The notes: generated from the sequence alone by a model not told the origin. 32,000 bases of DNA from Micrococcus luteus NCTC 2665 (GCF_000023205.1 NC_012803.1:2310001-2342000); one strand, 5' to 3'; counted from the stretch's first letter, positions 22,401 to 31,907 are shown. Numbers and translations: made by a program.

Positions 22401-22844
22401 ACGTACTACGAGGCCCGCTCCACGCACGGCTCCACGCTCTCCCGGCTGGTGCACGCCTGGGTGGCGGCCCGCACCGATCCGGACCGCTCGTGGGACCTGT
22501 TCACGGAGGCGCTCGAGTCGGACCTCTCCGACACCCAGGGCGGCACCACCCGCGAGGGCATCCACCTGGGCCTGATGGCCGGCACCGTGGACACCGTGAT
22601 CCGCTGCTACGCGGGCCTGGAGACGCGCGAGGACGTGGTGCGCGTGGACCCGCGCATGCCCTCCCAGCTGCCCGGCGCCAGCTTCACCATCCGGTTCCGC
22701 CAGCAGCCGGTGCAGATCCACATGCGCCGCTCGGAGGTCACGGTCCGCGCCGGCAGCGGCATGTGGCACGACGTGCCGATGATCATCGCCGGCCAGGAGC
22801 ACACCCTGTCCCCGGGCGCCGAGATCACGGTCCCGCTGGGCTGA
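19467..22844 (+). CDS. Beta-phosphoglucomutase-type HAD hydrolase fused to a GH65 glycoside phosphorylase (trehalose/maltose/kojibiose phosphorylase family)
   Basis: ORF 19407..22844. The likely start is MSQTL at 19467. HAD motif I VIFDMDGVITDT, with later SSKNS and EDAVSGVKAA. GH65 catalytic region GLHGEGYRGHIFWDEIYVYPMLTL and a C-terminal GGTTREGIHLGLMAG motif. Confidence 0.9.
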   Translation: MSQTLTPAAPQDLNARRHRLRRYRAVIFDMDGVITDTAGVHAAAWKELFDAALPDVGALPANAAVVAADPDVLRPFDAAADYLHHVDGRPREDGVRTFFASRGLHVPEADSPEADAMPELTVLALAERKQGYFEQVLERDGVRVFPEAQDLLERLRAKGVPVALVTSSKNSRAVLTAGGVLDFFPVIVDGNTAVERELPGKPDPAMFWEAARELGVDVADAMVLEDAVSGVKAASDGRFGLVIGVDREPELGKGRLKAAGAHLVVQDYGTLHLEDRTTTPFDPAWVLRWDRFDPASEGTREVLCTLANGYWGTRGAVPGTRISSVHYPGTYMAGVFNRLTSMVQGRVVETEHMVNIQDWTPLVVTPRHGRPLLPGEENLVEYGQEMDLRRGVLSRTMTFEDEQGRRTTLHTRQFTSLANRHLAAIELTVVAENWSGDLTVRSKIEGRVANLNVSDDRTLANQHLEPVQAREIDGETVLLETATNQSGIHVALATRTRQVAPVGHHEPIRRPVDGSDLVVGQDILLHVDEGVPLVLEKIAAVATSHDHANASVWESAVKDVQRAQNFRNLLTLHEQRWGTNWDRFSVRIDLAEPYRHHRRSTAAEAGGEYAPPVVDAGHSAPVGSAVPMGKDGASLRQQLALNLHTFHVLQTAYGRRRDLDASVGARGLHGEGYRGHIFWDEIYVYPMLTLRRPEITRGLLMYRYRRLNEARANAQAAGWAGAMYPWQSGADGSEETPTELWNPRSRMWMPDNSHNQRHVSLDIAYSVLRYIEITKDTSFISDYGAEMLVEISRFFMSMTLHNAVTDRYEIHGVMGPDEFHDGYPETPGSGLRNNAYTNVLTSWVLSETARLVRWLDTLDDGLPEIMEITEEEIERWEDVSARLTVPFFEDGEEAGILAQFEGYQDLKEFDWEAYRAKYGNIGRMDLILQAEGDATNRYKLSKQADTLMLGYLFSAEELDGILRRMGYELPQEAFERMVTYYEARSTHGSTLSRLVHAWVAARTDPDRSWDLFTEALESDLSDTQGGTTREGIHLGLMAGTVDTVIRCYAGLETREDVVRVDPRMPSQLPGASFTIRFRQQPVQIHMRRSEVTVRAGSGMWHDVPMIIAGQEHTLSPGAEITVPLG

Positions 22845-22983: not shown

Positions 22984-24480
22984 CCTCTATGGTTTTCTTC
23001 AAGCCGCGAGAGCGACTGATGATGGTGCTGGCGGGGCGGTCGGATCTTGATACAGGGTGCCATCGCGGAGCATCGCGTAGAGCACGTCCGTGCGGCGCCG
23101 GGCCAGCGCGATCAGCGCCTGGTTGTGGCGTTTGCCCTGGGCTCGTTTGCGGTCGTAGTACGCCCTGGAAGGCGGGTGTGACAGCGAAGCGAACGCTGAG
23201 AGGAACAGGGCCCGCTTCAGTCGCTTGTTCCCGCCCCGGGCTACGTGCTCTCCGCGGATCGAGGTCCCGGAGCGTCGGGTGACCGGGGCGATCCCGGCGT
23301 AGGAGGCCAGATGCCCGGCATCGACGAAGTCCTTGCCCACAACTTCAGTGAGGATGCGTGCGGCGGTCCTGATCCCTACTCCGGGCATCGAGATCAGGAC
23401 CGGGTGAAGAGGGTGGGCCTCCACTGCAGCCTCCACCTGGGAGGCCAGGCCGGCCCGCTGACGGGTCAGGCCGGCGAGCTGTTCTGCCAGGATCGGGACC
23501 ACGGTGGCCGCGGCCTGCGTGCCGGCCACGACCACGGACTGCTCGTCCAGGGCTTGGAAGATCTGTTCCGTGAGAGAAGCGGCCAGGCGTGGGGCGTGCT
23601 TGCGCAGCCTGGCCCGCACATGCCCCGGCCCAGCCGTTCTGAGCTGTGCCGGGGTGGGGTAGCGGCCGAGAAGGTCTGCCACGGCGGGGTGGGTGATCCT
23701 GGGCCCGAGCACGCGCTCGAGCGCGGGGTGGATCTGGGTGAGGAGTCCGCGCAGCCCGTTCGAGGTCGCGGTGATCTGCGCGGCGAGGTCGTCATCGAAC
23801 CCGGCGAGCATGGCCAGCTCGGCGATCTGTTCCTCATCGACTCGGATGGAGCGCAGCGTATGGGGCATCGTGCGGGCTGCTTCAGCGATGATCGCCGCGT
23901 CCTTGGCGTCGGTCTTGGCCGAGCCGGGGTGCAGGTCAGCGATCCGTCGCATCGCCAGCCCGGGCAGGTACGCCACCTCAACGCCGTCGCAGGCCTGGGC
24001 CACGGCCACGGGCAGGGCGCCGATCGTGGCCGGTTGATCGACGACGAGCAGCGCGGGCCCGTGGGCGCGGGCGAGCTCGTCGAGGATGCCGCGTAGGCGG
24101 GTCTCGTCGTTGGGCAGGGCCTTGTCGTAGACCTTTTTCCCGGCCGCGGTGAGGGCCACGGCGTGGTGCTCGGCCTTGCCGACGTCAAGGCCGATGAACA
24201 CGGCCGGGTGCTGCTGTGCTGTCATGATCGTTCCCTTCTGGTGCGCCGGTGGCGTGTGCTGGCCGGCCGGGAGGTGATCACGCTCGGCATCCACGTTACG
24301 AAGGCCCTTGTCAGCCGGGTCCTGCCTCTATCAGCGATCCGTGACCACCGGACCGGTCCTGGGTGACAACACCCCCCGGATCATGGATGACTGGGGGCAA
24401 ACGATCATGCCCAGGACCGGCCGGTCAGCACTCCCTGATCCTGCCGGATCCAGGAGCCACGAAGAAGGTAACGGGGTATG
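22984..24480 (-). mobile_element. IS110-family insertion sequence (~1.5 kb, no terminal inverted repeats)
   Basis: It contains the DEDD transposase gene plus a ~255-nt 5' non-coding leader (24226-24480) and a ~15-nt 3' tail. It is bracketed by the imperfect direct repeat AGCGCGTCTGGGGGGTG (22967-22983) / AGCGCGTCTGGGGGGGTG (24481-24498). GC is lower than the flanks. The boundaries are inferred from that repeat and are uncertain by several nt. Confidence 0.75.
22999..24225 (-). CDS. IS110-family transposase (DEDD/RuvC-like N-domain plus C-terminal Tnp domain)
   Basis: ORF 22999..24294. The likely start is MTAQQHPAVFIGLDVGKAEHH at 24225, with AAGGGA upstream. Motifs: GLDVGK, VVVDQP, TDAKDAAIIAEAAR, and C-terminal MPGVGIRTAARILTEVG..FASYAGIAPVTRRSGTS..GGNKRLKRALF. 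Confidence 0.92.
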   Translation of the reverse strand: MTAQQHPAVFIGLDVGKAEHHAVALTAAGKKVYDKALPNDETRLRGILDELARAHGPALLVVDQPATIGALPVAVAQACDGVEVAYLPGLAMRRIADLHPGSAKTDAKDAAIIAEAARTMPHTLRSIRVDEEQIAELAMLAGFDDDLAAQITATSNGLRGLLTQIHPALERVLGPRITHPAVADLLGRYPTPAQLRTAGPGHVRARLRKHAPRLAASLTEQIFQALDEQSVVVAGTQAAATVVPILAEQLAGLTRQRAGLASQVEAAVEAHPLHPVLISMPGVGIRTAARILTEVVGKDFVDAGHLASYAGIAPVTRRSGTSIRGEHVARGGNKRLKRALFLSAFASLSHPPSRAYYDRKRAQGKRHNQALIALARRRTDVLYAMLRDGTLYQDPTAPPAPSSVALAA

Positions 24481-24504: not shown

Positions 24505-24717
24505 TCAGGCGGAGCGCGGGTACAGCAGCATCCGCAGCACCGGGTAGGCCACGACCAGCGCGCCCAGGGTGATGCCCAGGCGGGGCAGGGTGGTCAGCTC
24601 GGTGGTCAGCCCGAGCACCACGACGACGGCGGTCGCCAGGGCCATCAGCAGGAACGTGATCGTCCGCTCGGCGCGGCGCACGGCGCGGGACTCGGTGGAG
24701 GCGGCGGGGGTGGTCAT
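24505..24717 (-). CDS. Small two-TM membrane protein (70 aa), unknown function
   Basis: ORF 24505..24801. The likely start is MTTPAASTESRAVRRAERTITFLLMALATAVVVVLGL..LGITLGALVVAYPVLRMLL at 24717, with GAAGGAG upstream. It is divergent from the ABC-2 operon. Confidence 0.55.
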   Translation of the reverse strand: MTTPAASTESRAVRRAERTITFLLMALATAVVVVLGLTTELTTLPRLGITLGALVVAYPVLRMLLYPRSA

Positions 24718-25003: not shown

Positions 25004-25798
25004 ATGAACACGCACACCGCCCTCACCCTCCCCTCCCCCGGCCGCACCGAGGCCCCCGCGATCCCCGCGGCTCCCGCGTCCGACGCACCGCCGGCCCCGC
25101 CGATGCTCTCGATCCGCCACGTGTCCAAGCACTACGGCGGCGTCCCCGCGGTGCAGGACGTCTCCTTCGACGTCCCCGCCGGCCGCATCACCGGCTTCGT
25201 CGGCCCCAACGGCGCGGGCAAGTCCACCGTGCTGCGCATGGCCCTCGGCCTCACCCGCCCGGACGCCGGCGAGGTGACCGTGGACGGCGCGCCGTTCGCC
25301 GACGCCGCCGCCCCCGGACGCACCGTGGGCGCCCTGCTGAGCGCGGAGTCCCTGCCGGGGCACATGACCGTCCGCGGCCACCTCGGGTGGGCCGCCGCCA
25401 CGCAGGGCCTGCCCCGCCGGCGGGTCCGCGAGGTCCTGGAGGCCGTGGGCCTGCCGCACGCCGGCCGACGTCGGATCAAGGGGCTCTCGCTGGGCATGCG
25501 CCAGCGCGTCGGGCTGGCCGCCGCCCTGCTGGGCGAGCCCCGCCTGCTCGTGCTGGACGAGCCCCTCAACGGCCTGGACACGGACGCGATCCTCGCGCTG
25601 CGCTCCCTGCTGACCGACTACGCGGCCCGCGGCAACACCGTGCTGCTGTCCTCGCACCTGATGGCCGAGCTGGCGCGGGTGGTGGACCACGTGGTGATGA
25701 TCCGCGGCGGCCGCCTCGTGGCCGCGGGCCCGCTGTCCGACTTCGAGTCCTCGGGCCGCACCCTCGAGGACGCCTACCTGCACCTCGTCCACGGCTGA
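25004..25798 (+). CDS. ABC transporter ATP-binding protein (ABC-2/CcmA-type)
   Basis: Walker A GPNGAGKSTVL, signature LSLGMRQRVGLAAAL, Walker B LLVLDEPLNGLD, H-loop LLSSHLM. The first 33 residues are a Pro/Ala-rich extension. An alternative start is MLSIRHV at 25103. Confidence 0.9.
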   Translation: MNTHTALTLPSPGRTEAPAIPAAPASDAPPAPPMLSIRHVSKHYGGVPAVQDVSFDVPAGRITGFVGPNGAGKSTVLRMALGLTRPDAGEVTVDGAPFADAAAPGRTVGALLSAESLPGHMTVRGHLGWAAATQGLPRRRVREVLEAVGLPHAGRRRIKGLSLGMRQRVGLAAALLGEPRLLVLDEPLNGLDTDAILALRSLLTDYAARGNTVLLSSHLMAELARVVDHVVMIRGGRLVAAGPLSDFESSGRTLEDAYLHLVHG

Positions 25799-25877: not shown

Positions 25878-26723
25878 ATGCAGACCGTCCTCGCCCCCTC
25901 GTCCCTGCCCGCCCCCGCCCCGCAGACCCTGCGCCACGTGCTCCGCGCCGAGGCCGGCCGCGCCGCCGGCCCGGGCGGGATGGTCGTGCCGTCCGTCGCC
26001 GCCGCGGCGCTCGGCACCGTCGCCGGCCTCGGCATGCACGCGGCCTCCCGCTGGATGTCCTCGACGCCGGAGCTGGCGGAGGGCACCGCGGCCGCGGCCC
26101 ACACCGCCGCGGCCACCGGGGTGGAGTCCGCCGTGGCGGTCGCCGCGCTGGTGATGTCCCTGGCCGCCGTCGTGCGGACCAGCCGGGACCAGGGCGCGGC
26201 CTTCGGCGCCCGCAGCCTGCTCGTGCCCCGCCGGGGACGACTGCTCGGCGCCCAGCTCGGCGCCCTGGCCGGCAGCGCGCTGCCGGCCCTGACGGCGACG
26301 GCGGTGCTCACCGCCGCGGCCATCGGCCTGACCGGCGGGGTCGTCCCGGCCGGGGCCGTGGGGCTCGCCGGGCTGCTGGCGGTGCTCGCCGGCACCGCCC
26401 TCGTGGTCCTCGCCGGCGGCCTGGCGGCGGCGGTGCGCTCCCTGCCCGTGGCGCTGCTGGCCTTCGTGGGCGTGATGGTCGTCCTCCCGCTGGCGATGAC
26501 CATGGCCCCGATGCTCCTGCCCGAAGCGATCGGCTCGGCCGTCACGGCGGCGGGCGCGTGGCTGCCCGCCCAGGCGTGGACGGGCGCGGCCGCGGTGTCC
26601 CAGCTCGACCCCGTGACCCCCGCCGCGCTGCTCCCGCTGGTCGGCCGCCTGGCGGTCCTCGTCGGCTGGACGGCGGCTGCCGTGCTCGCCGCCGTGGCCG
26701 TGGTCGCACGCAGGGACGCCTGA
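25878..26723 (+). CDS. ABC-2-type transporter permease (about 6 TM)
   Basis: A hydrophobic 281-aa ORF directly after the ATPase gene, with GGAGA upstream of the ATG. It has multiple Ala/Leu/Val-rich TM segments. The assignment rests on position and topology only. Confidence 0.7.
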   Translation: MQTVLAPSSLPAPAPQTLRHVLRAEAGRAAGPGGMVVPSVAAAALGTVAGLGMHAASRWMSSTPELAEGTAAAAHTAAATGVESAVAVAALVMSLAAVVRTSRDQGAAFGARSLLVPRRGRLLGAQLGALAGSALPALTATAVLTAAAIGLTGGVVPAGAVGLAGLLAVLAGTALVVLAGGLAAAVRSLPVALLAFVGVMVVLPLAMTMAPMLLPEAIGSAVTAAGAWLPAQAWTGAAAVSQLDPVTPAALLPLVGRLAVLVGWTAAAVLAAVAVVARRDA

Positions 26724-26765
26724 CGCTCCCCGCCTGAGGGTCCCGCCGCGCCGGGACCGCCTCCC

Positions 26766-26815
26766 GCCGCCGCCCTGCCCGCGTCTCAGACGCAGGCAGG
26801 GCGGCGGCTTTTCTG
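26766..26815 (+). terminator. Intrinsic terminator after the ABC-2 operon
   Basis: GCCGCCGCCCTGCCCGCGTCT / AGACGCAGGCAGGGCGGCGGC forms a long G/C stem with one bulge, followed by TTTTCTG. Confidence 0.7.
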
Positions 26816-27603
26816 CGCCCTTCCGCGTACGCACCGGAGAGCATTCATGTGCCCGGTATCGAGACATTTCACACCGATTGCCTGCCCCTCTCGAGGTGCA
26901 TTGAATTGTTCCCTCGGATCCCCTTCCGCGCCCCGAGCGCCAGGGCCTCCGGCCGGCGCGACCCGGGGGGACGGCCTGCCCGCCTCGACCCGGAGGACGG
27001 CCTGCCGGCATCCCCTCCACGGCCCCGGAAAGACGGACCGCCGACGGCCCCCGGAGCGCGGCGGCCAGTGGCCGGCCGGCGGACGGCTCGGAGCAGGTCA
27101 GCGCAGGCCGGCGCGGATCGCCGTCGATCGCCACGCGCGCCCCGGACGGCCACCGGCCACGGCCCCGGGAGCGCGTCATCCCGCGCCCCAGGGGCGTCCG
27201 GATCGCCTCGGATCGGCCCCGCAGCGGCGATGACGGCAACCGAGCCACTCCAGCCGTCCATCAAAGGTCGGGGCGGCGGCGCCCTGCCCTAGACCCACGA
27301 CGGCGGGCCCGGCACCTGAGTCGACCGGAGACGCCCACTTTGATCTCCTCACGGAGCCGCCTCAATGCGGACGGACATTCCACCTCATGGCGGTGTTTCC
27401 ACCCCTTGTCCGAGCGGGAGTATTGAGACATCGCAAGGGCGGAAAACACCTCCGGAGCGAAGGACAAGAAGTCACCACGACTCACCTGGAGAACGACTCC
27501 CGAGAGGAACAGACCCCTCTGGACCGGAGAGCCAGGACCCGCACACCACCCCTAGGGCGTGTTGCTAAAGGGTTCGGGGACGTGGATGCGCGAGTCTGGG
27601 GTC

Positions 27604-27993
27604 ATGTCGCGTGATGTCATCTCGGACGAGGTCTGGGCCGTGATCGGCCCACTGTTCCCCGAAGCCAAGACCACCGGGCGTCCGCCCGTGGATCGGCGCG
27701 CGGTGGTCGAGGCCACCGCGTGGCGCTTCCGCACCGGGGCGCCGTGGCGGGATCTGCCCGAGCGGTTCGGGAACTGGAACACGATCTACAAGAACTTCAA
27801 CCGGTGGGCCGCCCAGGGCGTGTGGGAGCGGGTGCTGGAGAAGACCCAGTCCATGGCACAGCAGGCTGGCGAGCTGGACTGGGTGGCCTCGATCGATTCC
27901 ACGATCGTGCGCGTCCACCAGCACGGGGCGACCCTGCCCCGCCCCACAGGGGGCCTGGATGAACTACAAGAAATCCGGGGACGAGCCGGCTGA
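27604..27993 (+). CDS. IS5-family transposase, N-terminal ORF (orfA)
   Basis: MSRDVISDEVWAVIGPLFPEAKTTGRPPVDRRAVVEATAWRFRTGAPWRDLPERFGNWNTIYKNFNRWAAQGVWERV matches the classical DUF4096/IS5 N-terminal domain. The ATG at 27604 lies within ORF 27559..27993. Confidence 0.9.
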   Translation: MSRDVISDEVWAVIGPLFPEAKTTGRPPVDRRAVVEATAWRFRTGAPWRDLPERFGNWNTIYKNFNRWAAQGVWERVLEKTQSMAQQAGELDWVASIDSTIVRVHQHGATLPRPTGGLDELQEIRGRAG

Positions 27994-28483
27994 TCATGCC
28001 ATCGGACGCTCCCGCGGCGGTCTGACGACGAAGAATCATCTGGTCTGTGATGGCAAGGGCCGGGTGCTGGCGTTCGTGGTGACCGGCGGGCAGGTCGCGG
28101 ACACCTCGATGCTGGCCACCACGCTGGAGCAGATCAGCGTTGCCGGGGCCCGTGGGCGGCCCCGGATACGGCCTGACCGCCTGATTGCGGACAAGGGCTA
28201 CCCCTCGAAGGCGAACCGGGCTTGGCTGCGCCGGCATGGCATCGCGGCCACGATCCCCGAGCGGGCCGATCAGATCGCGCACCGGCGCCGCCGCCCAGGA
28301 AGACCGATCGACTTCGGTGAAGACCAGCGCCAGCGCTACCGGGGACGCAATGTCGTGGAGCGGTGCTTCAACCGGCTCAAACAGTGGCGAGGGATCGCGA
28401 TGCGTTCGGACAAGTACGCCCGGAACTATCACGCCGGGCTCAGCCTCGCAGCGACACTGCACTGGCTGACTACCCTACTTTAG
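27959..28483 (+). CDS. IS5-family transposase, DDE catalytic ORF (orfB), in the +1 frame relative to orfA
   Basis: ..DHAIGRSRGGLTTKNHLVCDGKGRVLAFVVTGGQVADTS...LIADKGYPSKANRAWLRRHGI...YRGRNVVERCFNRLKQWRGIAMRSDK is the DDE_Tnp_1 pattern. It overlaps orfA by 35 nt. Joining the ORFs needs a +1 (or -2) shift near CAAGAAATCCGGGG. I cannot tell whether this is programmed or a disabling mutation. Confidence 0.85.
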   Translation: MNYKKSGDEPADHAIGRSRGGLTTKNHLVCDGKGRVLAFVVTGGQVADTSMLATTLEQISVAGARGRPRIRPDRLIADKGYPSKANRAWLRRHGIAATIPERADQIAHRRRRPGRPIDFGEDQRQRYRGRNVVERCFNRLKQWRGIAMRSDKYARNYHAGLSLAATLHWLTTLL

Positions 28484-28505
28484 CAACACGCCCTAGGAGA
28501 AACCC

Positions 28506-28679
28506 ATGTTCACCGTGATCGCCCGCCTGTCCGCCCTCGCCTGGAAGTACGGCCGGACCGCCGTCAACCGCGCCATCACCTTCGTGCGCAACAACAAGGC
28601 CACCATCGACCGCTGGATCGTCCGCTTCGGCTACGCCGGCGCCGTCGAGCAGGTCCTGCGCGCCATCGGCGTCCTCTGA
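28506..28679 (+). CDS. Leaderless class-II bacteriocin candidate (57 aa), aureocin A53 / lacticin Q-like
   Basis: Not in the ORF track because it is too short. My translation: MFTVIARLSALAWKYGRTAVNRAITFVRNNKATIDRWIVRFGYAGAVEQVLRAIGVL*. AGGAGA (28495-28500) lies 5 nt before the ATG. All 56 third positions after the ATG are G or C. A 13-bp-stem terminator follows. The peptide is cationic (7 Arg + 2 Lys vs 1 Asp + 1 Glu), has 2 Trp, and has no signal or leader peptide. The layout resembles the aureocin A53/lacticin Q sequences as I remember them. Confidence 0.65.
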   Translation: MFTVIARLSALAWKYGRTAVNRAITFVRNNKATIDRWIVRFGYAGAVEQVLRAIGVL

Positions 28680-28694
28680 GCGGACGTCCCACCC

Positions 28695-28732
28695 CCGAAA
28701 GCCCTCGTCGCCCCCGCGACGAGGGCTTCGGC
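28695..28732 (+). terminator. Stem-loop terminator after the bacteriocin-like ORF
   Basis: AAGCCCTCGTCGC (28699-28711), a CCCC loop, then GCGACGAGGGCTT (28716-28728). The 13-bp stem is perfect and extendable with a bulge (CCGAA/TTCGG). The U-tract is weak, as is common in high-GC actinobacteria. Confidence 0.6.
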
Positions 28733-28858
28733 GCGCCCGCCCTCCGCCTTTCGTCGCACTCCGCGCCCGACTCAGGTCCGTGGTCCCACCCCCGGCGCTC
28801 CGGGAGACTGGACGCGGCGGCGCACACCGCCCGCCACCGATCCCGAGGAAGACCCCGC

Positions 28859-29434
28859 ATGCTCGATCACCCGAACGCCGCCCCGTCGCCCGAGGACGCC
28901 CCGGCCGCGCCCGCCCGCCCGGCCGGCGACGCCGGGGTCACCCGGCTGCCCCGGCTCGCGCTGCGCGTGTGGCAGGCGACCACGTGCGCGACGGCCCTGC
29001 CGATCGCCGCCGTCCTGGCCGCCGTCGCGCTGTGGTGGGACCACCCGGTGGGCGGCCCCGTGCTGTGGATCCTCGTGGCCCTCACGGCGGCGGTCGCCCT
29101 CGCCGACCTGGCCGTCGTCAACCGCGTCCGGCACCGCAGCTACAGGTACACGGTGGACGAGGACGAGGTGTACATCGCCAAGGGCGCCCTCGTGCGCCAC
29201 ACGGTGGACGTCGCCGTGCCCCAGGTCCTGAGCGTGCACGTGGTCCGCGGCCCCCTGCAGCGGGCGCTCGGCCTGGCCACGGTGCGCTTCGTGAGCGTGG
29301 TGGACGCCGAGTCCCTCGGCCCCGTGGAGCTCGCCGAGGCGCAGCGCGTCAAGGAGGTCGTCCTGCGCGGGCTCGCCGCCCGCCGCCAGGAGTCGGCGAC
29401 CGCCCTCGTCGCCGCCGGTGAGGTCGCGCCGTGA
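28859..29434 (+). CDS. YdbS-like membrane protein with one bPH_2 (DUF304) bacterial PH domain
   Basis: Two TMs (ATALPIAAVLAAVALWW, VLWILVALTAAVALADLAVV). Then RSYRYTVDEDEVYIAKGALVRHTVDVAVPQVLSVHVVRGPLQRALGLATVRFVSV, the bPH_2 signature pattern. GAGGAAG lies upstream of the ATG. Confidence 0.8.
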   Translation: MLDHPNAAPSPEDAPAAPARPAGDAGVTRLPRLALRVWQATTCATALPIAAVLAAVALWWDHPVGGPVLWILVALTAAVALADLAVVNRVRHRSYRYTVDEDEVYIAKGALVRHTVDVAVPQVLSVHVVRGPLQRALGLATVRFVSVVDAESLGPVELAEAQRVKEVVLRGLAARRQESATALVAAGEVAP

Positions 29435-31065
29435 ACGCCGCGCCCCGGACCGGCAAGGCCGCCGTCGCCCGCCCCGACGCCTGGCCCGCGCCGGCGTCGT
29501 TCTCCGACTCCCCCCGCTACGTGCTCGCCCGCTGGATCACGGACCTGCCGGCCATGGCGATCGGGCTCGTCGGCTCGCTGACGTGGATCGCCCAGTGGCC
29601 CGCCCCCTGGGGGCCCCTCGTCCAGGCGCTGATGCTCCTGTGGGTCGCCTCCCTCGTGCTCGGCCCCGTGATCCGCTGGCGCACGGCCCGCTTCCACGTC
29701 TCCGCCGACGGCGTCCAGGTGGACAGCGGCCTGCTCTCGCGCCGCTTCGAGTCCCTGCCGTGGGACCTCGTGACGTCGGTGGACCACCGCCAGCCCTGGG
29801 CGTTCCAGCTGCTGGGCATCACCGAGGTGACGTGCACCCAGACCGGCGAGGACGGGTCCCGCGTCCGCCTGGACGGCCTGGCCCCCGCCGACCTCGCCGC
29901 GTTCCAGCGGCATGCCGACGCCGCCGCGGCGCTCGGCCGGTCCGCGCAGGCCGGGTCCTCGCGCGTCGAGGACATCGCGGCGTCGCGGGTCGACGACGAC
30001 GGCGCCCCGGCGGATCGCGCCGGGGCCGCCCCCGCCGACCAGGCCGACCGCGCCCCCACGGGCCAGGCCGACGCCGCCGACGCCGCCGCCCCGGCCGCCG
30101 TCGTCCACCGCACCACCCTCGCGGACCTGCTCGTGCTGAGCCTGGTCTACGGCCAGGTGCTGCTGCTGGTGCCGCCGGTGGCGTTCGGCCTCATGGAGCT
30201 GACGGACGTGCTGGGCCTCACCGAGCGCCTCGAGTCCCTGCTCTTCTCCGGGCTCGGCTCCTGGCCGACGGCGCTGCTGATCGTGGCCCTGGCCGTGGTC
30301 GTCGGGCTGACCGCCACCGTGGTCAAGTTCCACGGGTTCACGGTGCTCGCGACGCCGGAGGGTCGGCTGCGCATCCGCTACGGGCTGGTCTCCACGCACG
30401 AGCGCGTCATCACACCCGGCGCCGTGCAGGGCGTGGTGTGGCACCGCAACGCGGCCGAGCAGCTGCTGGGCCGGGCCCGGCTGTCCGTGCTCACCCTGGA
30501 CAGCGCGGCCCAGCTGGGCGGCAACCTCGTGCTGCCCTCGATGCCCGTGGAGCGGGCCCGGGCCATCGTGGCCGAGCACCTGCCCGAGTTCGCCGGCACG
30601 GCCCGCCGCCTGTCCACCGGCCTGGCGACGCCGGCCGTCAACCTGGTCTCCCTTCTCGCCCTCGCGGCGGCCTTCGCGGGGACCTGGGTGCTCACGGCCC
30701 AGACGTGGGGGTGGCCGTGGCCGCTCGCCGCCGGCGCCTGCCTCGCGGCCGCCGCCGTCGTGGCCGGGATCATCGCGGTGGCCACCGCGCGCCTCTACGC
30801 CGACCCCGCGGCGGGGCTGTTCCTCACCCGCCGGATCACGGTGGGCGAGCGGGTCACGGCCGTCCGGGCCACCCGCCTGCACGGGATCTCGGCGCACCAC
30901 CTGCACCACGCCCGCACCCCACGCGGCCGGCGCACCGCGTGGCTGCCCACGGTGTTCTACTTCGCCGGCGCCCCCCGCCGGGCCATGGCGCTCGTCACCG
31001 CGCCGGAGGCCGTGGAGGCGCTCCAGGCGATGGTGCGCCACTCCTCGGTGCCGCTGCGCGCCTGA
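29431..31065 (+). CDS. YdbT-like membrane protein with three bPH_2 (DUF304) domains
   Basis: GTG start in a GTGA overlap with the ydbS-like stop, indicating translational coupling. Repeated modules: RFHVSADGVQVDSGLLSRRFESLPWDLVTSVDHRQPWAFQLLGITEV.., RLRIRYGLVSTHERVITPGAVQGVVWHRNAAEQLLGRARLSVLTL.., and LFLTRRITVGERVTAVRATRLHGISA.. TM pairs lie between the modules. Confidence 0.8.
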   Translation: MNAAPRTGKAAVARPDAWPAPASFSDSPRYVLARWITDLPAMAIGLVGSLTWIAQWPAPWGPLVQALMLLWVASLVLGPVIRWRTARFHVSADGVQVDSGLLSRRFESLPWDLVTSVDHRQPWAFQLLGITEVTCTQTGEDGSRVRLDGLAPADLAAFQRHADAAAALGRSAQAGSSRVEDIAASRVDDDGAPADRAGAAPADQADRAPTGQADAADAAAPAAVVHRTTLADLLVLSLVYGQVLLLVPPVAFGLMELTDVLGLTERLESLLFSGLGSWPTALLIVALAVVVGLTATVVKFHGFTVLATPEGRLRIRYGLVSTHERVITPGAVQGVVWHRNAAEQLLGRARLSVLTLDSAAQLGGNLVLPSMPVERARAIVAEHLPEFAGTARRLSTGLATPAVNLVSLLALAAAFAGTWVLTAQTWGWPWPLAAGACLAAAAVVAGIIAVATARLYADPAAGLFLTRRITVGERVTAVRATRLHGISAHHLHHARTPRGRRTAWLPTVFYFAGAPRRAMALVTAPEAVEALQAMVRHSSVPLRA

Positions 31066-31196: not shown

Positions 31197-31907
31197 TCAG
31201 CGGCGGGGCAGCAGCACCTCGAGGCGGAGCCGGTCGGCGTCCGCCCGGACGGCGCACTCGCCGCCGTAGGCGTCCACCCGGGTCCGCAGGGACTCCTCCA
31301 GCCCACGCAGGCCGGCCGCGCCGGCACTGCGGGGCCGGGGGCCGGCGTCGGGGGCGCGGCGGGCGACGAGGCTCAGCGCCACCCGGTCCGCGGCGGGCCC
31401 CAGGCGCACGACGCCGTCCGCCAGCTCCGGATCCCGGGCGAGGGAGGCGAAGAGCTCCAGGAGGCGCAGGACGGCGACCCGGATGCTCGGCGAGAGCGCG
31501 TGGAGGTCCTCCTCGGCGACGTCCCACACCCATCCCGCGGGCACGACGGCGGCGGGGTCGAGGGGGTCGCCCGGGCCGGAGCCGGACGGCAGGTCGGCGG
31601 CGACGCGGTCCGTGCCGCGCAGCACCGTGAGCAGCCGGCGCACGTCGATGAGGGCCTGGTCGGCCATGCCGCGGATCCGGTGCTCGGCGTCGGCCCGCTC
31701 GGGCGATGCCGTCAGGCTCGGCAGCAGCGCGGCCTGCATGGACAGCGTGGTGAGGCTCTGGGCCAGGCCGGCGTGGAGGTCGTCGGCGATCTGCTCCTGC
31801 TCCACCGCCGTCGTCGTGCTGGGGACGCCCGGGCGGCGATCGCCGCCGTCGGGGGCGCGCCCGGGTCCGTCTCCGGTCCCCCGGGGGTGGTGCTGGGATG
31901 GAGTCAT
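31197..31907 (-). CDS. HisKA_3-type histidine kinase-like protein lacking any sensor/TM domain
   Basis: The H-box-like EQEQIADDLHAGLAQSLTTLSMQAALL follows the NarL-partner kinase pattern ER.RIAR.LHD.....L. The C-terminal third is HATPase-like, but I could not see clear N/G boxes. There is no hydrophobic N-terminus. Confidence 0.6.
   Translation of the reverse strand: MTPSQHHPRGTGDGPGRAPDGGDRRPGVPSTTTAVEQEQIADDLHAGLAQSLTTLSMQAALLPSLTASPERADAEHRIRGMADQALIDVRRLLTVLRGTDRVAADLPSGSGPGDPLDPAAVVPAGWVWDVAEEDLHALSPSIRVAVLRLLELFASLARDPELADGVVRLGPAADRVALSLVARRAPDAGPRPRSAGAAGLRGLEESLRTRVDAYGGECAVRADADRLRLEVLLPRR

What the first reader, a model, noticed from the sequence alone, without database searches (positions are those of the whole stretch)
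28495..31065. Unannotated 57-codon leaderless bacteriocin candidate with a YdbS/YdbT (bPH_2) export/immunity pair in a high-GC actinobacterium
Seen in the sequence:
- The ORF at 28506-28679 (+) is below the ORF-track cutoff. It has AGGAGA 5 nt upstream, G/C at all 56 third positions after the ATG, and a perfect 13-bp hairpin right after the stop.
- The peptide is MFTVIARLSALAWKYGRTAVNRAITFVRNNKATIDRWIVRFGYAGAVEQVLRAIGVL. It has no Sec signal, no double-Gly leader and no Cys. Net charge is about +7, and it has two Trp.

Established knowledge, recalled from memory and not searched:
- Aureocin A53 (..IAKYGKKAVSAAWKYKGKVLEWLNVGPTLEWVWQKLKKIAGL) and lacticin Q (..LAKYGSKAVQWAWANKGKILDWLNAGQAIDWVVSKIKQILGIK) share the blocks (A/W)KYG.(K/T)AV and NK..(L/I)(D/E).W(L/I)..G......(V/I)......G(L/I).
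- These peptides are made without a leader. To my recollection their loci, and those of other leaderless peptides such as enterocin DD14, carry bPH_2/DUF304 membrane proteins of the YdbS/YdbT type.
- Exactly such a translationally coupled pair follows here (28859-29434, 29431-31065).

Inference: this is a complete leaderless-bacteriocin module with Arg replacing the usual Lys. I know of no characterised example of that kind in Micrococcales-type actinobacteria.
Basis: partly seen in the sequence, partly recalled or inferred. Interest (0 to 1): 0.85.

Follow-up and report, generated by a model that had tools for sequence, protein, structure and literature searches.

The report
Leaderless bacteriocin cluster in Micrococcus luteus
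The 57-codon gene is real and is a distant, arginine-rich relative of the aureocin A53/lacticin Q family of leaderless antibacterial peptides, sitting with its likely export genes in Micrococcus luteus NCTC 2665; this kind of cluster was already predicted in related actinobacteria in 2024, and in this strain a mobile element has cut the gene off from its own promoter.

Summary
ORF 28506-28679(+) has AGGAGA 5 nt upstream, G/C at every third codon position and a strong hairpin after the stop. Two overlapping bPH_2 (YdbS/YdbT-type) genes follow it.

The peptide misses the curated models NF033881 and PF11758. Three other tests tie it to the aureocin A53/lacticin Q family:
- An HMM built from 24 published family members scores it 25.8 bits (best of 2000 shuffles 11.7).
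- BLASTP to an NF033881-positive Tersicoccus peptide gives E 5e-9.
- hhalign of its broadened family against 20 published members gives 97.7 % probability, E 1.7e-12, over the full length.

In every intact relative with enough flanking DNA, one to three tandem peptide genes precede a bPH_2 pair. An ABC transporter and a NarL-type two-component system often sit nearby.

- The gene is annotated (ACS31649.1, "hypothetical"; UniRef calls it "Transposase").
- Aureocin A53-like peptides were already predicted in Actinomycetota, including Micrococcaceae (PMC11580447).
- In this strain, M. luteus NCTC 2665, an IS5-family element sits inside the CCTAGG immediately upstream of the start codon.

Antimicrobial activity is untested. 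I class it as a new member of a known kind, of moderate interest.

The parts
28506..28679 (+). Structural gene for a 57-aa leaderless peptide (MFTVIARLSALAWKYGRTAVNRAITFVRNNKATIDRWIVRFGYAGAVEQVLRAIGVL). It is a distant, Arg-rich member of the aureocin A53/lacticin Q-like family.
   Evidence: ORF and translation. GC3 = 1.00. Relatives of 56-58 aa at 38-95 % identity. Custom family HMM 25.8 bits. BLASTP E 5e-9 to the Tersicoccus peptide. hhalign 97.7 %, E 1.7e-12. GenBank ACS31649.1.
28495..28500 (+). Shine-Dalgarno AGGAGA, 5 nt before the ATG. Its first three bases lie inside the right terminal repeat / target duplication of the IS.
   Evidence: The same AGGAGA(A/T)(A/C)CCATG is present in IS-free strains and in Arthrobacter loci.
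28695..28731 (+). G+C-rich hairpin (13-bp perfect core) between the peptide gene and the bPH_2 genes. Probably a terminator or attenuator without a U-tail.
   Evidence: MFE -39.1 kcal/mol, z -3.6. Identical in M. endophyticus. The function is inferred.
28859..29434 (+). YdbS-like protein, 191 aa: two hydrophobic segments (40-58, 68-86) followed by one bPH_2 domain (93-165).
   Evidence: Pfam PF03703 41.8 bits. Hydropathy. Orthologues follow the peptide gene(s) in L001, L004, L011, L012, L014, L016-L021.
29431..31065 (+). YdbT-like protein, 544 aa, GTG start overlapping the ydbS-like stop (GTGA). Several TM segments alternate with bPH_2 domains.
   Evidence: Pfam PF03703 47.0 bits in two stretches. 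Five strong hydrophobic segments. Identity 48 % to the A. echini protein and 27-29 % to the L011/L014 proteins.
25004..25798 (+). ABC transporter ATPase, 264 aa. Candidate secretion/self-protection pump of the cluster.
   Evidence: Pfam ABC_tran 109 bits. Identity 47-48 % to the ATPase that directly follows the bPH_2 pair in distant peptide loci L011 and L014.
25878..26723 (+). ABC transporter permease, 281 aa, six hydrophobic segments, no Pfam match.
   Evidence: Identity 31 % (E 2e-12) to the permease of L011.
27551..28497 (+). IS5-family insertion sequence. It has perfect 20-nt terminal inverted repeats (27551-27570 / 28478-28497) and a transposase in two overlapping frames (27559-27993, 27959-28483). 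It is inserted in the CCTAGG immediately upstream of the peptide start codon. It is an interruption, not part of the cluster.
   Evidence: (NF033580 119.8 and 143.9 bits). The empty site CACCCCTAGGAGAAACCCATG is seen in L001 and L006-L008; L010 has CAAGG at that position. The IS is present only in L005 and L009.
27300..27550 (+). Native upstream region of the peptide gene: lower G+C, non-coding, presumably promoter and 5' UTR. It is now displaced about 0.95 kb from the gene by the IS.
   Evidence: Contiguous with the start codon in IS-free strains. Composition. No sigma-70-type consensus found. The promoter role is inferred.
31197..31907 (-). HisKA_3 histidine kinase fragment-sized gene (236 aa). 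With the GerE-type response regulator just beyond the window end, it is a candidate regulator of the cluster.
   Evidence: Pfam HisKA_3. A response regulator follows in L005. A HisKA_3 kinase plus GerE regulator lie next to the peptide genes in L004, L014-L016, and a GerE-type regulator alone in L013.
24505..24717 (-). 70-aa protein with two hydrophobic segments, divergent from the ABC genes. A possible small immunity or accessory protein (speculative).
   Evidence: In-frame GC3 about 1.0. L011 and L014 carry 71-75-aa membrane proteins after the permease, but without detectable sequence similarity.

Best explanation
The locus is a class IId leaderless bacteriocin gene cluster of the aureocin A53/lacticin Q type in Micrococcus luteus NCTC 2665.

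Shown here:
- The 57-aa gene is a genuine, conserved coding gene.
- Its product is homologous over its full length, starting at Met1, to leaderless A53-like peptides.
- It is followed by a YdbS/YdbT-type bPH_2 membrane pair.
- It is flanked by an ABC ATPase/permease and a NarL-type two-component system, and these recur next to distant homologues.

Inferred by analogy:
- The peptide is made without a leader and probably keeps formyl-Met.
- It folds into a compact, cationic (+7), amphipathic helical bundle.
- The bPH_2 pair exports it, as DdE/DdF do for enterocin DD14. The ABC transporter assists and also protects the producer, as LnqEF and AucEFG do.
- It kills other Gram-positive bacteria by receptor-independent membrane permeabilisation.
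- The hairpin after the stop probably keeps peptide mRNA in excess over export-gene mRNA.

In this particular strain an IS5-family element has landed inside the CCTAGG just upstream of the ATG. It preserves the ribosome-binding site but removes the native upstream region. Expression would now depend on read-through from the element, which points the same way, and may be weak or absent.
For: The gene is real:
- GC3 = 1.00 with strong codon periodicity.
- All intact homologues are 56-58 codons; none is shortened.
- dN/dS is 0.37-0.53 between Micrococcus and Arthrobacter copies.
- The 5' flanks of those copies are unalignable apart from the ribosome-binding site.

Family membership:
- An HMM of 24 published A53-like peptides scores it 25.8 bits, E 1e-6. 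The best of 2000 shuffles is 11.7 bits, and no other ORF in the window hits.
- BLASTP gives E 5e-9 and 4e-7 to Tersicoccus and Arthrobacter peptides that pass NF033881.
- The family profile reaches P0014 (E 1.5e-5 in 1.84 billion proteins), which itself scores 24.3 bits on NF033881.
- hhalign of alignments A4 against A5 gives 97.7 %, E 1.7e-12, columns 1-56 against 1-52.

Structure:
- The AF2 model is all-helical with pLDDT 92.

Context:
- The bPH_2 pair is confirmed.
- The same order, peptide(s) then YdbS then YdbT, is seen in 13 checked loci outside M. luteus, from eight or more distinct lineages.
- The ABC genes are homologous to those of L011 and L014.
- Tandem paralogues occur elsewhere.

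Literature:
- PH-domain proteins are required for leaderless bacteriocin export (PMC8657885).
- A53-like clusters with PH and ABC genes occur across Actinomycetota, and two synthetic actinobacterial peptides were active (PMC11580447).
Against: - The peptide has no hit to NF033881 or PF11758 at E <= 1, and no PDB sequence hit to A53, lacticin Q or epidermicin.
- A profile comparison against only three Firmicute peptides was insignificant.
- The fold comparison is inconclusive. The A53 hit has E = 2.8, the second model found nothing, and DSSP draws residues 31-53 as one helix rather than two.
- Within-genus dN/dS is near 1, although on very few substitutions.
- In one lineage (L023/L024) the peptide gene is a pseudogene while the bPH_2 pair stays intact.
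- YdbS/YdbT pairs also exist in genomes without bacteriocins (PMC8657885 Table 1).
- No antimicrobial activity has been reported for this peptide in the literature searched.
- In this strain the IS may silence the gene.
Confidence: 0.72

Rival explanations
1. The cluster is genuine by descent, but in NCTC 2665 it is a silenced relic. The IS5-family insertion upstream of the ATG uncouples the peptide gene from its promoter, so this strain makes little or no peptide and keeps only the export and protection genes. This refines the best explanation for this strain rather than excluding it.
For: - The IS has perfect 20-nt inverted repeats ending at 28497, inside the Shine-Dalgarno region.
- The empty site is present in five other Micrococcus genomes.
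- A second strain-specific IS (IS110 family, 22999-24294) lies in the same locus.
- The peptide gene decayed independently in L023/L024, which shows that loss of production is tolerated.
- From my own knowledge: NCTC 2665 is used as a sensitive indicator strain and is not known as a producer.
Against: - The ORF, the ribosome-binding site and the hairpin are intact.
- The transposase frames run in the same direction and stop 22 nt before the ATG, so read-through transcription and translation remain possible.
- No terminator-like site on the + strand was found between 26700 and 28500.
- No expression data are available.
Confidence: 0.4
2. The peptide is a membrane-active small protein with a physiological role in the cell itself rather than a weapon. 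It might be a partner or substrate of the YdbS/YdbT complex in envelope stress, or a signal sensed by the adjacent two-component system.
For: - YdbS/YdbT pairs are widespread without bacteriocins.
- A NarL-type two-component system is a constant neighbour.
- No activity data exist.
- BacSp222, a family member, has functions beyond killing bacteria (PMC8230399 abstract).
Against: - There is full-length homology to a family whose tested members are bactericidal (PMC11580447).
- Tandem diversifying paralogues occur.
- Distribution is patchy, with a mobile-element context in A. echini.
- The gene has been lost while the exporter was kept.
All of these are typical of bacteriocins, not of housekeeping small proteins.
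Confidence: 0.1
3. The ORF is a chance open frame in a 73 % G+C genome, or a passenger or part of the neighbouring IS, as the UniRef name 'Transposase' suggests.
For: - Long spurious ORFs are common in this window.
- The ORF abuts the IS.
- UniRef names it Transposase.
Against: - GC3 = 1.00 with low GC1 and GC2.
- It is conserved with the same length across genera while the flanks diverge.
- It sits at the same place in IS-free strains, and the IS inverted repeat ends before the ATG.
- It shows significant family homology.
Confidence: 0.01

Closest known systems
Aureocin A53 / lacticin Q / epidermicin NI01 (aureocin A53-like class IId leaderless bacteriocins; NCBIfam NF033881, Pfam PF11758; PDB 2N8O, 2N8P, 6SIF)
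   Same: - Made from Met1 with no leader. About 50-60 aa, strongly cationic, Trp-containing, Cys-free and predicted all-helical.
- Shared blocks (A/W)KYG..AV and NN/NK..(I/V)..W(I/L)...G, and a C-terminal (I/L)G(I/V/L).
- Gene clusters with YdbS/YdbT-type proteins (Orf7/8, LnqC/D) and an ABC transporter.
- Profile-profile probability 97.7 %.
   Different: - Falls below both curated models (no hit at E <= 1). Only about 24 % identity in the hhalign alignment.
- A 4-residue insertion after KYG.
- Arg instead of Lys (7 Arg and 2 Lys, against 8 Lys and no Arg in lacticin Q).
- Two of the family's conserved Trp positions are replaced: Phe26 in the WAW block, and no Trp in the last helix.
- The 4-helix fold is not confirmed.
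- Activity is untested.
Predicted A53-like peptides of Micrococcaceae and Microbacteriaceae in Hourigan et al. 2024 (PMC11580447), e.g. Tersicoccus WP_198928468.1 and Arthrobacter WP_229994749.1; synthetic arcanocin and arachnicin
   Same: - High-GC actinobacterial hosts, and longer, Arg-rich peptides.
- The motif WKYG...(A/V)RNN..T(V/I)..W(L/I).R.
- PH-domain and ABC genes in the cluster.
- BLASTP E 5e-9, 33 % identity over 46 residues to the Tersicoccus peptide.
   Different: - The Micrococcus/Arthrobacter echini subfamily (56-58 aa...RFGYAGAVEQVLRAIGVL tail) is absent from that paper's text and supplementary tables. Micrococcus is not listed at all.
- Those peptides pass NF033881 and this one does not.
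- Arcanocin and arachnicin have measured activity.
Enterocin DD14 / L50 cluster (ddABCDEFGHIJ)
   Same: - Leaderless peptide genes, tandem in some relatives, are followed by a small and a large PHb2-domain membrane protein (DdE 141 aa, DdF 458 aa) and an ABC transporter.
- DdE and DdF are each required for export, and their loss traps toxic peptide inside the cell (PMC8657885).
   Different: - The DD14 peptides belong to a different leaderless subfamily (44/43 aa, two-peptide).
- Gene order differs: here the ABC genes lie upstream and are separated by about 0.8 kb of non-coding DNA plus the IS.
- No DdD-type immunity gene was identified here.

Membership tests
Aureocin A53-like class IId leaderless bacteriocins | Scores above the curated cut-off of NCBIfam NF033881 (27 bits) or Pfam PF11758 (25 bits) | tested here: not met
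   No hit to either model at E <= 1. Positive controls: lacticin Q scores 83.8 and 98.4 bits, and the Tersicoccus and Arthrobacter peptides score 36.6 and 32.0 bits on NF033881.
Aureocin A53-like class IId leaderless bacteriocins | Statistically supported full-length homology to accepted family members | tested here: met
   - A custom HMM of 24 published members scores 25.8 bits, E 1e-6, aligned 1-55. The best of 2000 shuffles is 11.7 bits.
- BLASTP E 5e-9 and 4e-7 to NF033881-positive peptides.
- hhalign 97.7 %, E 1.7e-12.
- Intermediate P0014 is reached at E 1.5e-5 in 1.84e9 proteins and scores 24.3 bits on NF033881.
Aureocin A53-like class IId leaderless bacteriocins | No leader or signal peptide: the mature peptide starts at the initiator Met | tested here: inconclusive
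   Met1 aligns with Met1 of the family in both the HMM and hhalign alignments. There is no GG motif, no Cys and no 19-residue hydrophobic segment. No signal-peptide predictor was available, and the mature N-terminus can only be shown by mass spectrometry.
Aureocin A53-like class IId leaderless bacteriocins | Small (about 44-64 aa), cationic, Trp-containing, unmodified | tested here: met
   57 aa, net +7, pI 11.6, 2 Trp, 0 Cys. No modification enzymes among the neighbouring genes.
Aureocin A53-like class IId leaderless bacteriocins | Compact four-helix saposin-like bundle | tested here: inconclusive
   - AF2 pLDDT is 92.5 and 92.0, all-helical, with helices 2-10, 12-15, 17-29 and 31-53/54.
- Foldseek PDB top hit of model 1 is aureocin A53 2N8O, with TM 0.48/0.51 and rmsd 2.8 over 49 columns, but E = 2.8. 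Model 2 gave no hit.
- The hydrophobic moment is 0.05 for 31-53 as one helix and 0.52-0.53 for its two halves. That argues for a break at the near-invariant (>=90 %) Gly42.
Aureocin A53-like class IId leaderless bacteriocins | Cluster with dedicated membrane export/protection genes (YdbS/YdbT-like PH proteins, ABC transporter) | tested here: met
   bPH_2 pair directly downstream. ABC ATPase and permease upstream, homologous to those in L011 and L014. The same association holds in all intact relatives examined.
Aureocin A53-like class IId leaderless bacteriocins | Bactericidal, membrane-permeabilising activity of the peptide | not testable with these tools
   Needs synthesis or purification and bioassay. 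No report was found in the searched literature.
YdbS/YdbT (bPH_2, COG3402/COG3428) membrane protein pair | bPH_2 (PF03703) domain(s) above the gathering score | tested here: met
   41.8 bits (191-aa protein, residues 93-165) and 47.0 bits in two stretches (544-aa protein), against a cut-off of 22.
YdbS/YdbT (bPH_2, COG3402/COG3428) membrane protein pair | Topology: small protein with 2 TM and 1 PH domain; large protein with about 6 TM and 3 PH domains; adjacent co-oriented genes | tested here: inconclusive
   - Small protein: two hydrophobic segments and then the PH domain. Feature met.
- Large protein: five strong hydrophobic segments by a crude hydropathy scan, and only two PH stretches detected by Pfam.
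- The genes overlap by GTGA.
YdbS/YdbT (bPH_2, COG3402/COG3428) membrane protein pair | Required for export of the linked leaderless peptide (as DdE/DdF) | not testable with these tools
   Analogy only (PMC8657885).
IS5 family insertion sequence (the interrupting element) | DDE transposase matching an IS5-family model, terminal inverted repeats, and an empty site in relatives | tested here: met
   - NF033580 scores 119.8 and 143.9 bits (cut-off 110). The two hits cover profile positions 2-110 and 111-258 in two overlapping frames.
- Perfect 20-nt inverted repeats, found only at the two ends.
- The empty site CCCTAGGAG is present in L001 and L006-L008; L010 has CAAGG there.
- The size of the target duplication (2-6 bp within CCTAGG) cannot be resolved because the target is palindromic.

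The most novel reading that the evidence does not exclude
The Micrococcus/Arthrobacter 56-58-aa peptides form a previously unrecognised, Arg-rich clade of active leaderless bacteriocins. They escape all curated models and escaped the 2024 actinobacterial survey. They would be the first ribosomal antibacterial peptides of Micrococcus, accounting for some of the long-reported but unexplained antibacterial activity of the genus. In Fleming's strain NCTC 2665, the standard indicator organism, the gene is switched off by an IS insertion. IS-free isolates would therefore be producers, while the type strain is an immune non-producer.
Probability: 0.4. Interest if true: 0.55.

Novelty: new member of a known kind. 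Interest (0 to 1): 0.4.

Why it matters
Micrococcus genomes are regarded as almost devoid of recognisable antibiotic gene clusters, yet antibacterial activity of the genus has been reported for over a century (PMC10548855). A leaderless bacteriocin cluster that standard models miss would give a concrete, easily tested candidate, because the peptide can simply be synthesised.

It also extends the aureocin A53-like family to a divergent Arg-rich branch, which is useful for improving the NF033881 and PF11758 models. It adds independent comparative support for the link between YdbS/YdbT PH-domain proteins and export of leaderless peptides.

The IS insertion in the type strain, and the pseudogene in another lineage, are small natural experiments on losing production while keeping the export genes.

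None of this changes the current picture of how such systems work.

Tried and rejected
- Direct searches with the single peptide were negative or irrelevant. Pfam and NCBIfam gave only SicP-binding and AMEP412 at E about 0.05. PDB phmmer gave only SptP at E 1.4. BLASTP to aureocin A53 gave nothing, and to lacticin Q only 8/25 identities.
- hhalign of the narrow family against three Firmicute peptides gave 2 % probability. Homology appeared only after adding actinobacterial bridging sequences from the literature and distant relatives from the 1.84-billion-protein scan.
I do not count the fold as evidence of membership.
- Rfam at gathering thresholds found nothing in the whole window.
- The sigma-70 consensus scan found no promoter between 26700 and 29000, so the native promoter remains unlocated.
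- tblastn against PLSDB plasmids gave no match.
- The genome-contig scan returned only three Arthrobacter loci and no Micrococcus genome. Micrococcus contexts had to come from exact-sequence look-ups.
- The idea that the ORF belongs to the IS was rejected on the empty-site evidence.
- The idea that the 70-aa membrane protein is the homologue of the small proteins after the permease in L011 and L014 was not supported by BLASTP.
- Not checked: whether M. luteus has a second, housekeeping YdbS/YdbT pair elsewhere in its genome.

Full report
**1. The observation**

- AGGAGA lies at 28495-28500, followed by a 5-nt spacer and the ATG.
- Every third codon position is G or C. GC3 is 1.00, while codon positions 1 and 2 over 28500-28679 are 0.58 and 0.48. 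This is the same in-frame signature as the flanking genuine genes.
- Sixteen nucleotides after the stop a hairpin spans 28695-28731, with a 13-bp perfect core. The 85-nt stretch folds at -39.1 kcal/mol, z = -3.6, and none of 200 shuffles folds as well. No U-run follows it.
- The peptide has 7 Arg, 2 Lys, 1 Asp and 1 Glu (net +7), two Trp, no Cys and no GG.
- The genes at 28859-29434 and 29431-31065 overlap by GTGA, and both pass Pfam bPH_2.

**2. Where the window comes from, and the annotation claim**

The 9,495 nt from window position 22506 to the window end are identical to LS483396.1 (GCA_900475555.1) and differ at one position from CP007437.1. The exact peptide is GenBank ACS31649.1 from Micrococcus luteus ATCC 4698 / NCTC 2665. 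GenBank names it "hypothetical protein" and UniRef names it "Transposase". M. endophyticus has it as "hypothetical protein ACEUE7_00520". So the gene is annotated, but uninformatively or wrongly.

**3. The gene is real**

- The exact sequence occurs on contigs in 101 blocks of the public collection.
- Eight clusters at 81-93 % identity, all 57 aa, were found in the 5.8-billion-protein set.
- Three Arthrobacter loci carry copies at 67-72 % identity.
- A profile scan of 1.84 billion representatives added five more distant relatives of 56-58 aa.
- Between Micrococcus and Arthrobacter copies dN/dS is 0.37-0.53. Within-genus values are near 1 but rest on 5-15 substitutions.
- The 5' flanks of the Micrococcus and Arthrobacter genes are unalignable apart from the ribosome-binding site, so the conservation is specific to the ORF.

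**4. What the peptide is**

Single-sequence searches fail.
- There is no NF033881 or PF11758 hit at E <= 1.
- There is no PDB sequence hit to A53, lacticin Q or epidermicin.
- BLASTP to lacticin Q is marginal and to aureocin A53 gives nothing. I verified both recalled sequences against PDB 2N8P and 2N8O.
- A profile comparison against three Firmicute peptides alone was insignificant.

The link comes through actinobacterial intermediates. Hourigan et al. 2024 (PMC11580447) mined aureocin A53-like peptides. They list 97 in Actinomycetota, including Micrococcaceae (Tersicoccus, Arthrobacter, Paenarthrobacter) and Microbacteriaceae.
- The window peptide matches the Tersicoccus peptide at E 5e-9 (33 % over 46 residues) and the Arthrobacter one at 4e-7. 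Both of those pass NF033881.
- An HMM I built from 24 published family members scores the window peptide 25.8 bits (E 1e-6), aligned from Met1 to residue 55. The best of 2000 shuffles reaches 11.7 bits, and no other stop-to-stop frame in the window scores.
- The distant relative P0014 was found with the Micrococcus profile at E 1.5e-5 against 1.84e9 proteins. It scores 24.3 bits on NF033881, just under the cut-off of 27.
- hhalign of the broadened family (15 sequences) against 20 published members gives 97.7 % probability and E 1.7e-12, covering columns 1-56 against 1-52.

I conclude that the peptide is a divergent member of the A53/lacticin Q superfamily, below the curated thresholds. This explains why it stayed "hypothetical".

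The alignment places W37 on the conserved Trp of the I(L/D)xW(L/I) block. Phe26 sits on a family Trp position, which is Trp in the Arthrobacter homologues. Gly42 sits on the family's invariant loop Gly. There is a four-residue insertion after KYG.

**5. Structure**

AlphaFold2 gives confident all-helical models, with pLDDT 92.5 and 92.0 and helices at 2-10, 12-15, 17-29 and 31-53/54.
- Foldseek against the PDB put aureocin A53 (2N8O) first for model 1, with TM 0.48/0.51 and rmsd 2.8 Å over 49 columns, but at E = 2.8.
- Model 2 gave no hit.
- The hydrophobic moment collapses to 0.05 if residues 31-53 are treated as one helix, but is 0.52-0.53 for each half. This argues for a break at Gly42, as in the A53 fold.

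I treat the fold as compatible but unproven.

**6. Genomic context**

In every intact relative with enough flanking sequence, one to three tandem peptide genes are followed by a small and then a large bPH_2 protein:
- M. endophyticus, with two peptide copies;
- A. echini;
- L011, L012, L014 and L015;
- L016 and L017, with three peptide genes;
- L018, with three;
- L019, with two;
- L020 and L021.

In L011 and L014 the operon continues with an ABC ATPase, a permease and a 71-75-aa membrane protein. A GerE-type response regulator and a HisKA_3 kinase lie upstream.

The window's ABC ATPase (25004-25798) is 47-48 % identical to those ATPases, and its permease (25878-26723) is 31 % identical to the L011 permease. 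A HisKA_3 gene lies at 31197-31907(-), with the response regulator just past the window end. The functional unit is therefore larger than the coordinates given.

Searching from the YdbS side found only 12 relatives at E <= 1e-10. Those examined again sit behind a peptide gene. There is one informative exception. In L023 and L024, which come from two independent samples, the peptide gene carries a 7-nt gap and a 1-nt deletion while the bPH_2 pair is intact. I read it as ordinary loss of a toxin gene with retention of its exporter, because intact peptides dominate elsewhere.

**7. The literature on the bPH_2 pair**

PMC8657885 shows the following.
- DdE (141 aa) and DdF (458 aa) are YdbS/YdbT-like.
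- Each is required for export of the leaderless enterocin DD14, and their deletion traps toxic peptide inside the producer.
- Orf7/Orf8 of the aureocin A53 plasmid and LnqC/LnqD of the lacticin Q locus are homologous to YdbS/YdbT.

The supported role is export. Immunity has been assigned to ABC transporters and other proteins. The same paper notes YdbS/YdbT pairs in genomes without bacteriocins, so the pair alone is not diagnostic.

**8.

A 947-bp IS5-family element occupies 27551-28497.
- Its perfect 20-nt inverted repeats occur nowhere else in the window.
- Its transposase is split over two overlapping frames that together cover the NF033580 profile.
- L001 and L006-L008 have the empty site CACCCCTAGGAGAAACCCATG; L010 has CAAGG at that position.
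- The element inserted into the palindrome CCTAGG, and the target duplication regenerates the AGG of the Shine-Dalgarno sequence.

As a result the native upstream region (about 27300-27550, lower G+C, non-coding) is displaced by roughly 0.95 kb. The transposase frames run in the same direction and end 22 nt before the peptide ATG. Only the NCTC 2665 lineage (L005, L009) carries this IS, and also an IS110-family element at 22999-24294. Whether the peptide is still expressed in this strain cannot be decided from sequence.

**9. Mechanism**

Shown: homology to the leaderless family, a conserved operon partnership with YdbS/YdbT, ABC and two-component system genes, and an intact ORF, ribosome-binding site and hairpin.

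Inferred, from established knowledge of lacticin Q, aureocin A53 and enterocin DD14:
- The peptide is translated without a leader.
- It folds into a cationic amphipathic bundle.
- It is exported by the PH-domain pair with help from the ABC pump, which also protects the producer.
- It permeabilises membranes of competing Gram-positive bacteria without a protein receptor.
- The hairpin keeps peptide mRNA in excess over export-gene mRNA.
- The NarL-type two-component system controls the cluster.

**10. Novelty and verdict**

The kind of system, A53-like leaderless bacteriocin clusters with PH-domain and ABC genes in Actinomycetota including Micrococcaceae, was published in 2024, with two synthetic peptides shown to be active (PMC11580447). 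This Micrococcus/A. echini subfamily is not in that paper's text or tables, is missed by the curated models, and has no reported activity.

It is best classed as a new, divergent member of a known kind. The strain-specific IS insertion in a historically important indicator strain is an appealing detail. Interest is moderate (0.4). My confidence that this is a leaderless bacteriocin cluster by descent is about 0.85. My confidence that the peptide is an active bacteriocin is about 0.6. The stated 0.72 covers the combined statement.

Noticed in passing
window 27551-28497: An IS5-family element (perfect 20-nt inverted repeats, two-frame transposase) is inserted in the CCTAGG just upstream of the peptide start codon. 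Five other Micrococcus genomes lack the insertion at this site. The target duplication rebuilds the ribosome-binding site.
   Followed up: yes
window 22999-24294 (-): An IS110-family transposase (DEDD_Tnp_IS110 plus Transposase_20) lies between the GH65 hydrolase gene and the 70-aa gene. It is present only in the NCTC 2665 lineage (L005, L009) and absent from L006-L008 and L010. It is a second strain-specific IS in the same locus.
   Followed up: partly
window 26724-27550: About 830 nt between the permease and the peptide gene show no codon-position G+C signal, and no gene is called there in any strain. The stretch is conserved within Micrococcus and contains an imperfect inverted repeat (27389-27408 / 27434-27453). 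There was no Rfam hit and no promoter consensus. Its role is unknown (long 5' UTR, regulatory region, or decayed genes).
   Followed up: partly
L001 7723-7896 and 8001-8174 (M. endophyticus GCA_041900685.1): Two tandem copies of the peptide gene, 84 % identical at the protein level (9 of 57 positions differ), sit where M. luteus has one. The window copy has the upstream flank of copy 1 and the downstream flank of copy 2. This suggests a duplication in one lineage or a recombinational collapse in the other.
   Followed up: partly
L016 5001-5675, L017 398-1072, L018 471-1175, L019 60-471: Distant relatives carry two or three tandem, diverged 57-60-aa paralogues ahead of the bPH_2 pair, as in multi-peptide leaderless bacteriocins.
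   Followed up: partly
L023 1-348 and L024 1-315: The peptide gene is a pseudogene (a 7-nt gap near the 5' end and a 1-nt deletion after TGGATCA) upstream of intact ydbS/ydbT-like genes. It appears in two independent sequencing runs. P0010 shows the same N-terminal decay.
   Followed up: yes
window 24505-24717 (-): A 70-aa protein with two hydrophobic segments and strong in-frame GC3 is divergently placed next to the ABC genes. It may be a small immunity-type protein. It has no detectable similarity to the 71-75-aa membrane proteins that end the operon in L011 and L014.
   Followed up: partly
window 31197-31907 (-): The HisKA_3 kinase gene is only 236 aa, and Pfam detects only the HisKA_3 domain (residues 36-99). 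Kinases at the corresponding place in L004 and L014 are 380-421 aa. A second, full-size kinase (397 aa) lies beyond the window end after the response regulator (L005).
   Followed up: no
window 28506-28679: UniRef carries this peptide under the name 'Transposase', apparently transferred from the neighbouring IS. This is a database misannotation.
   Followed up: yes
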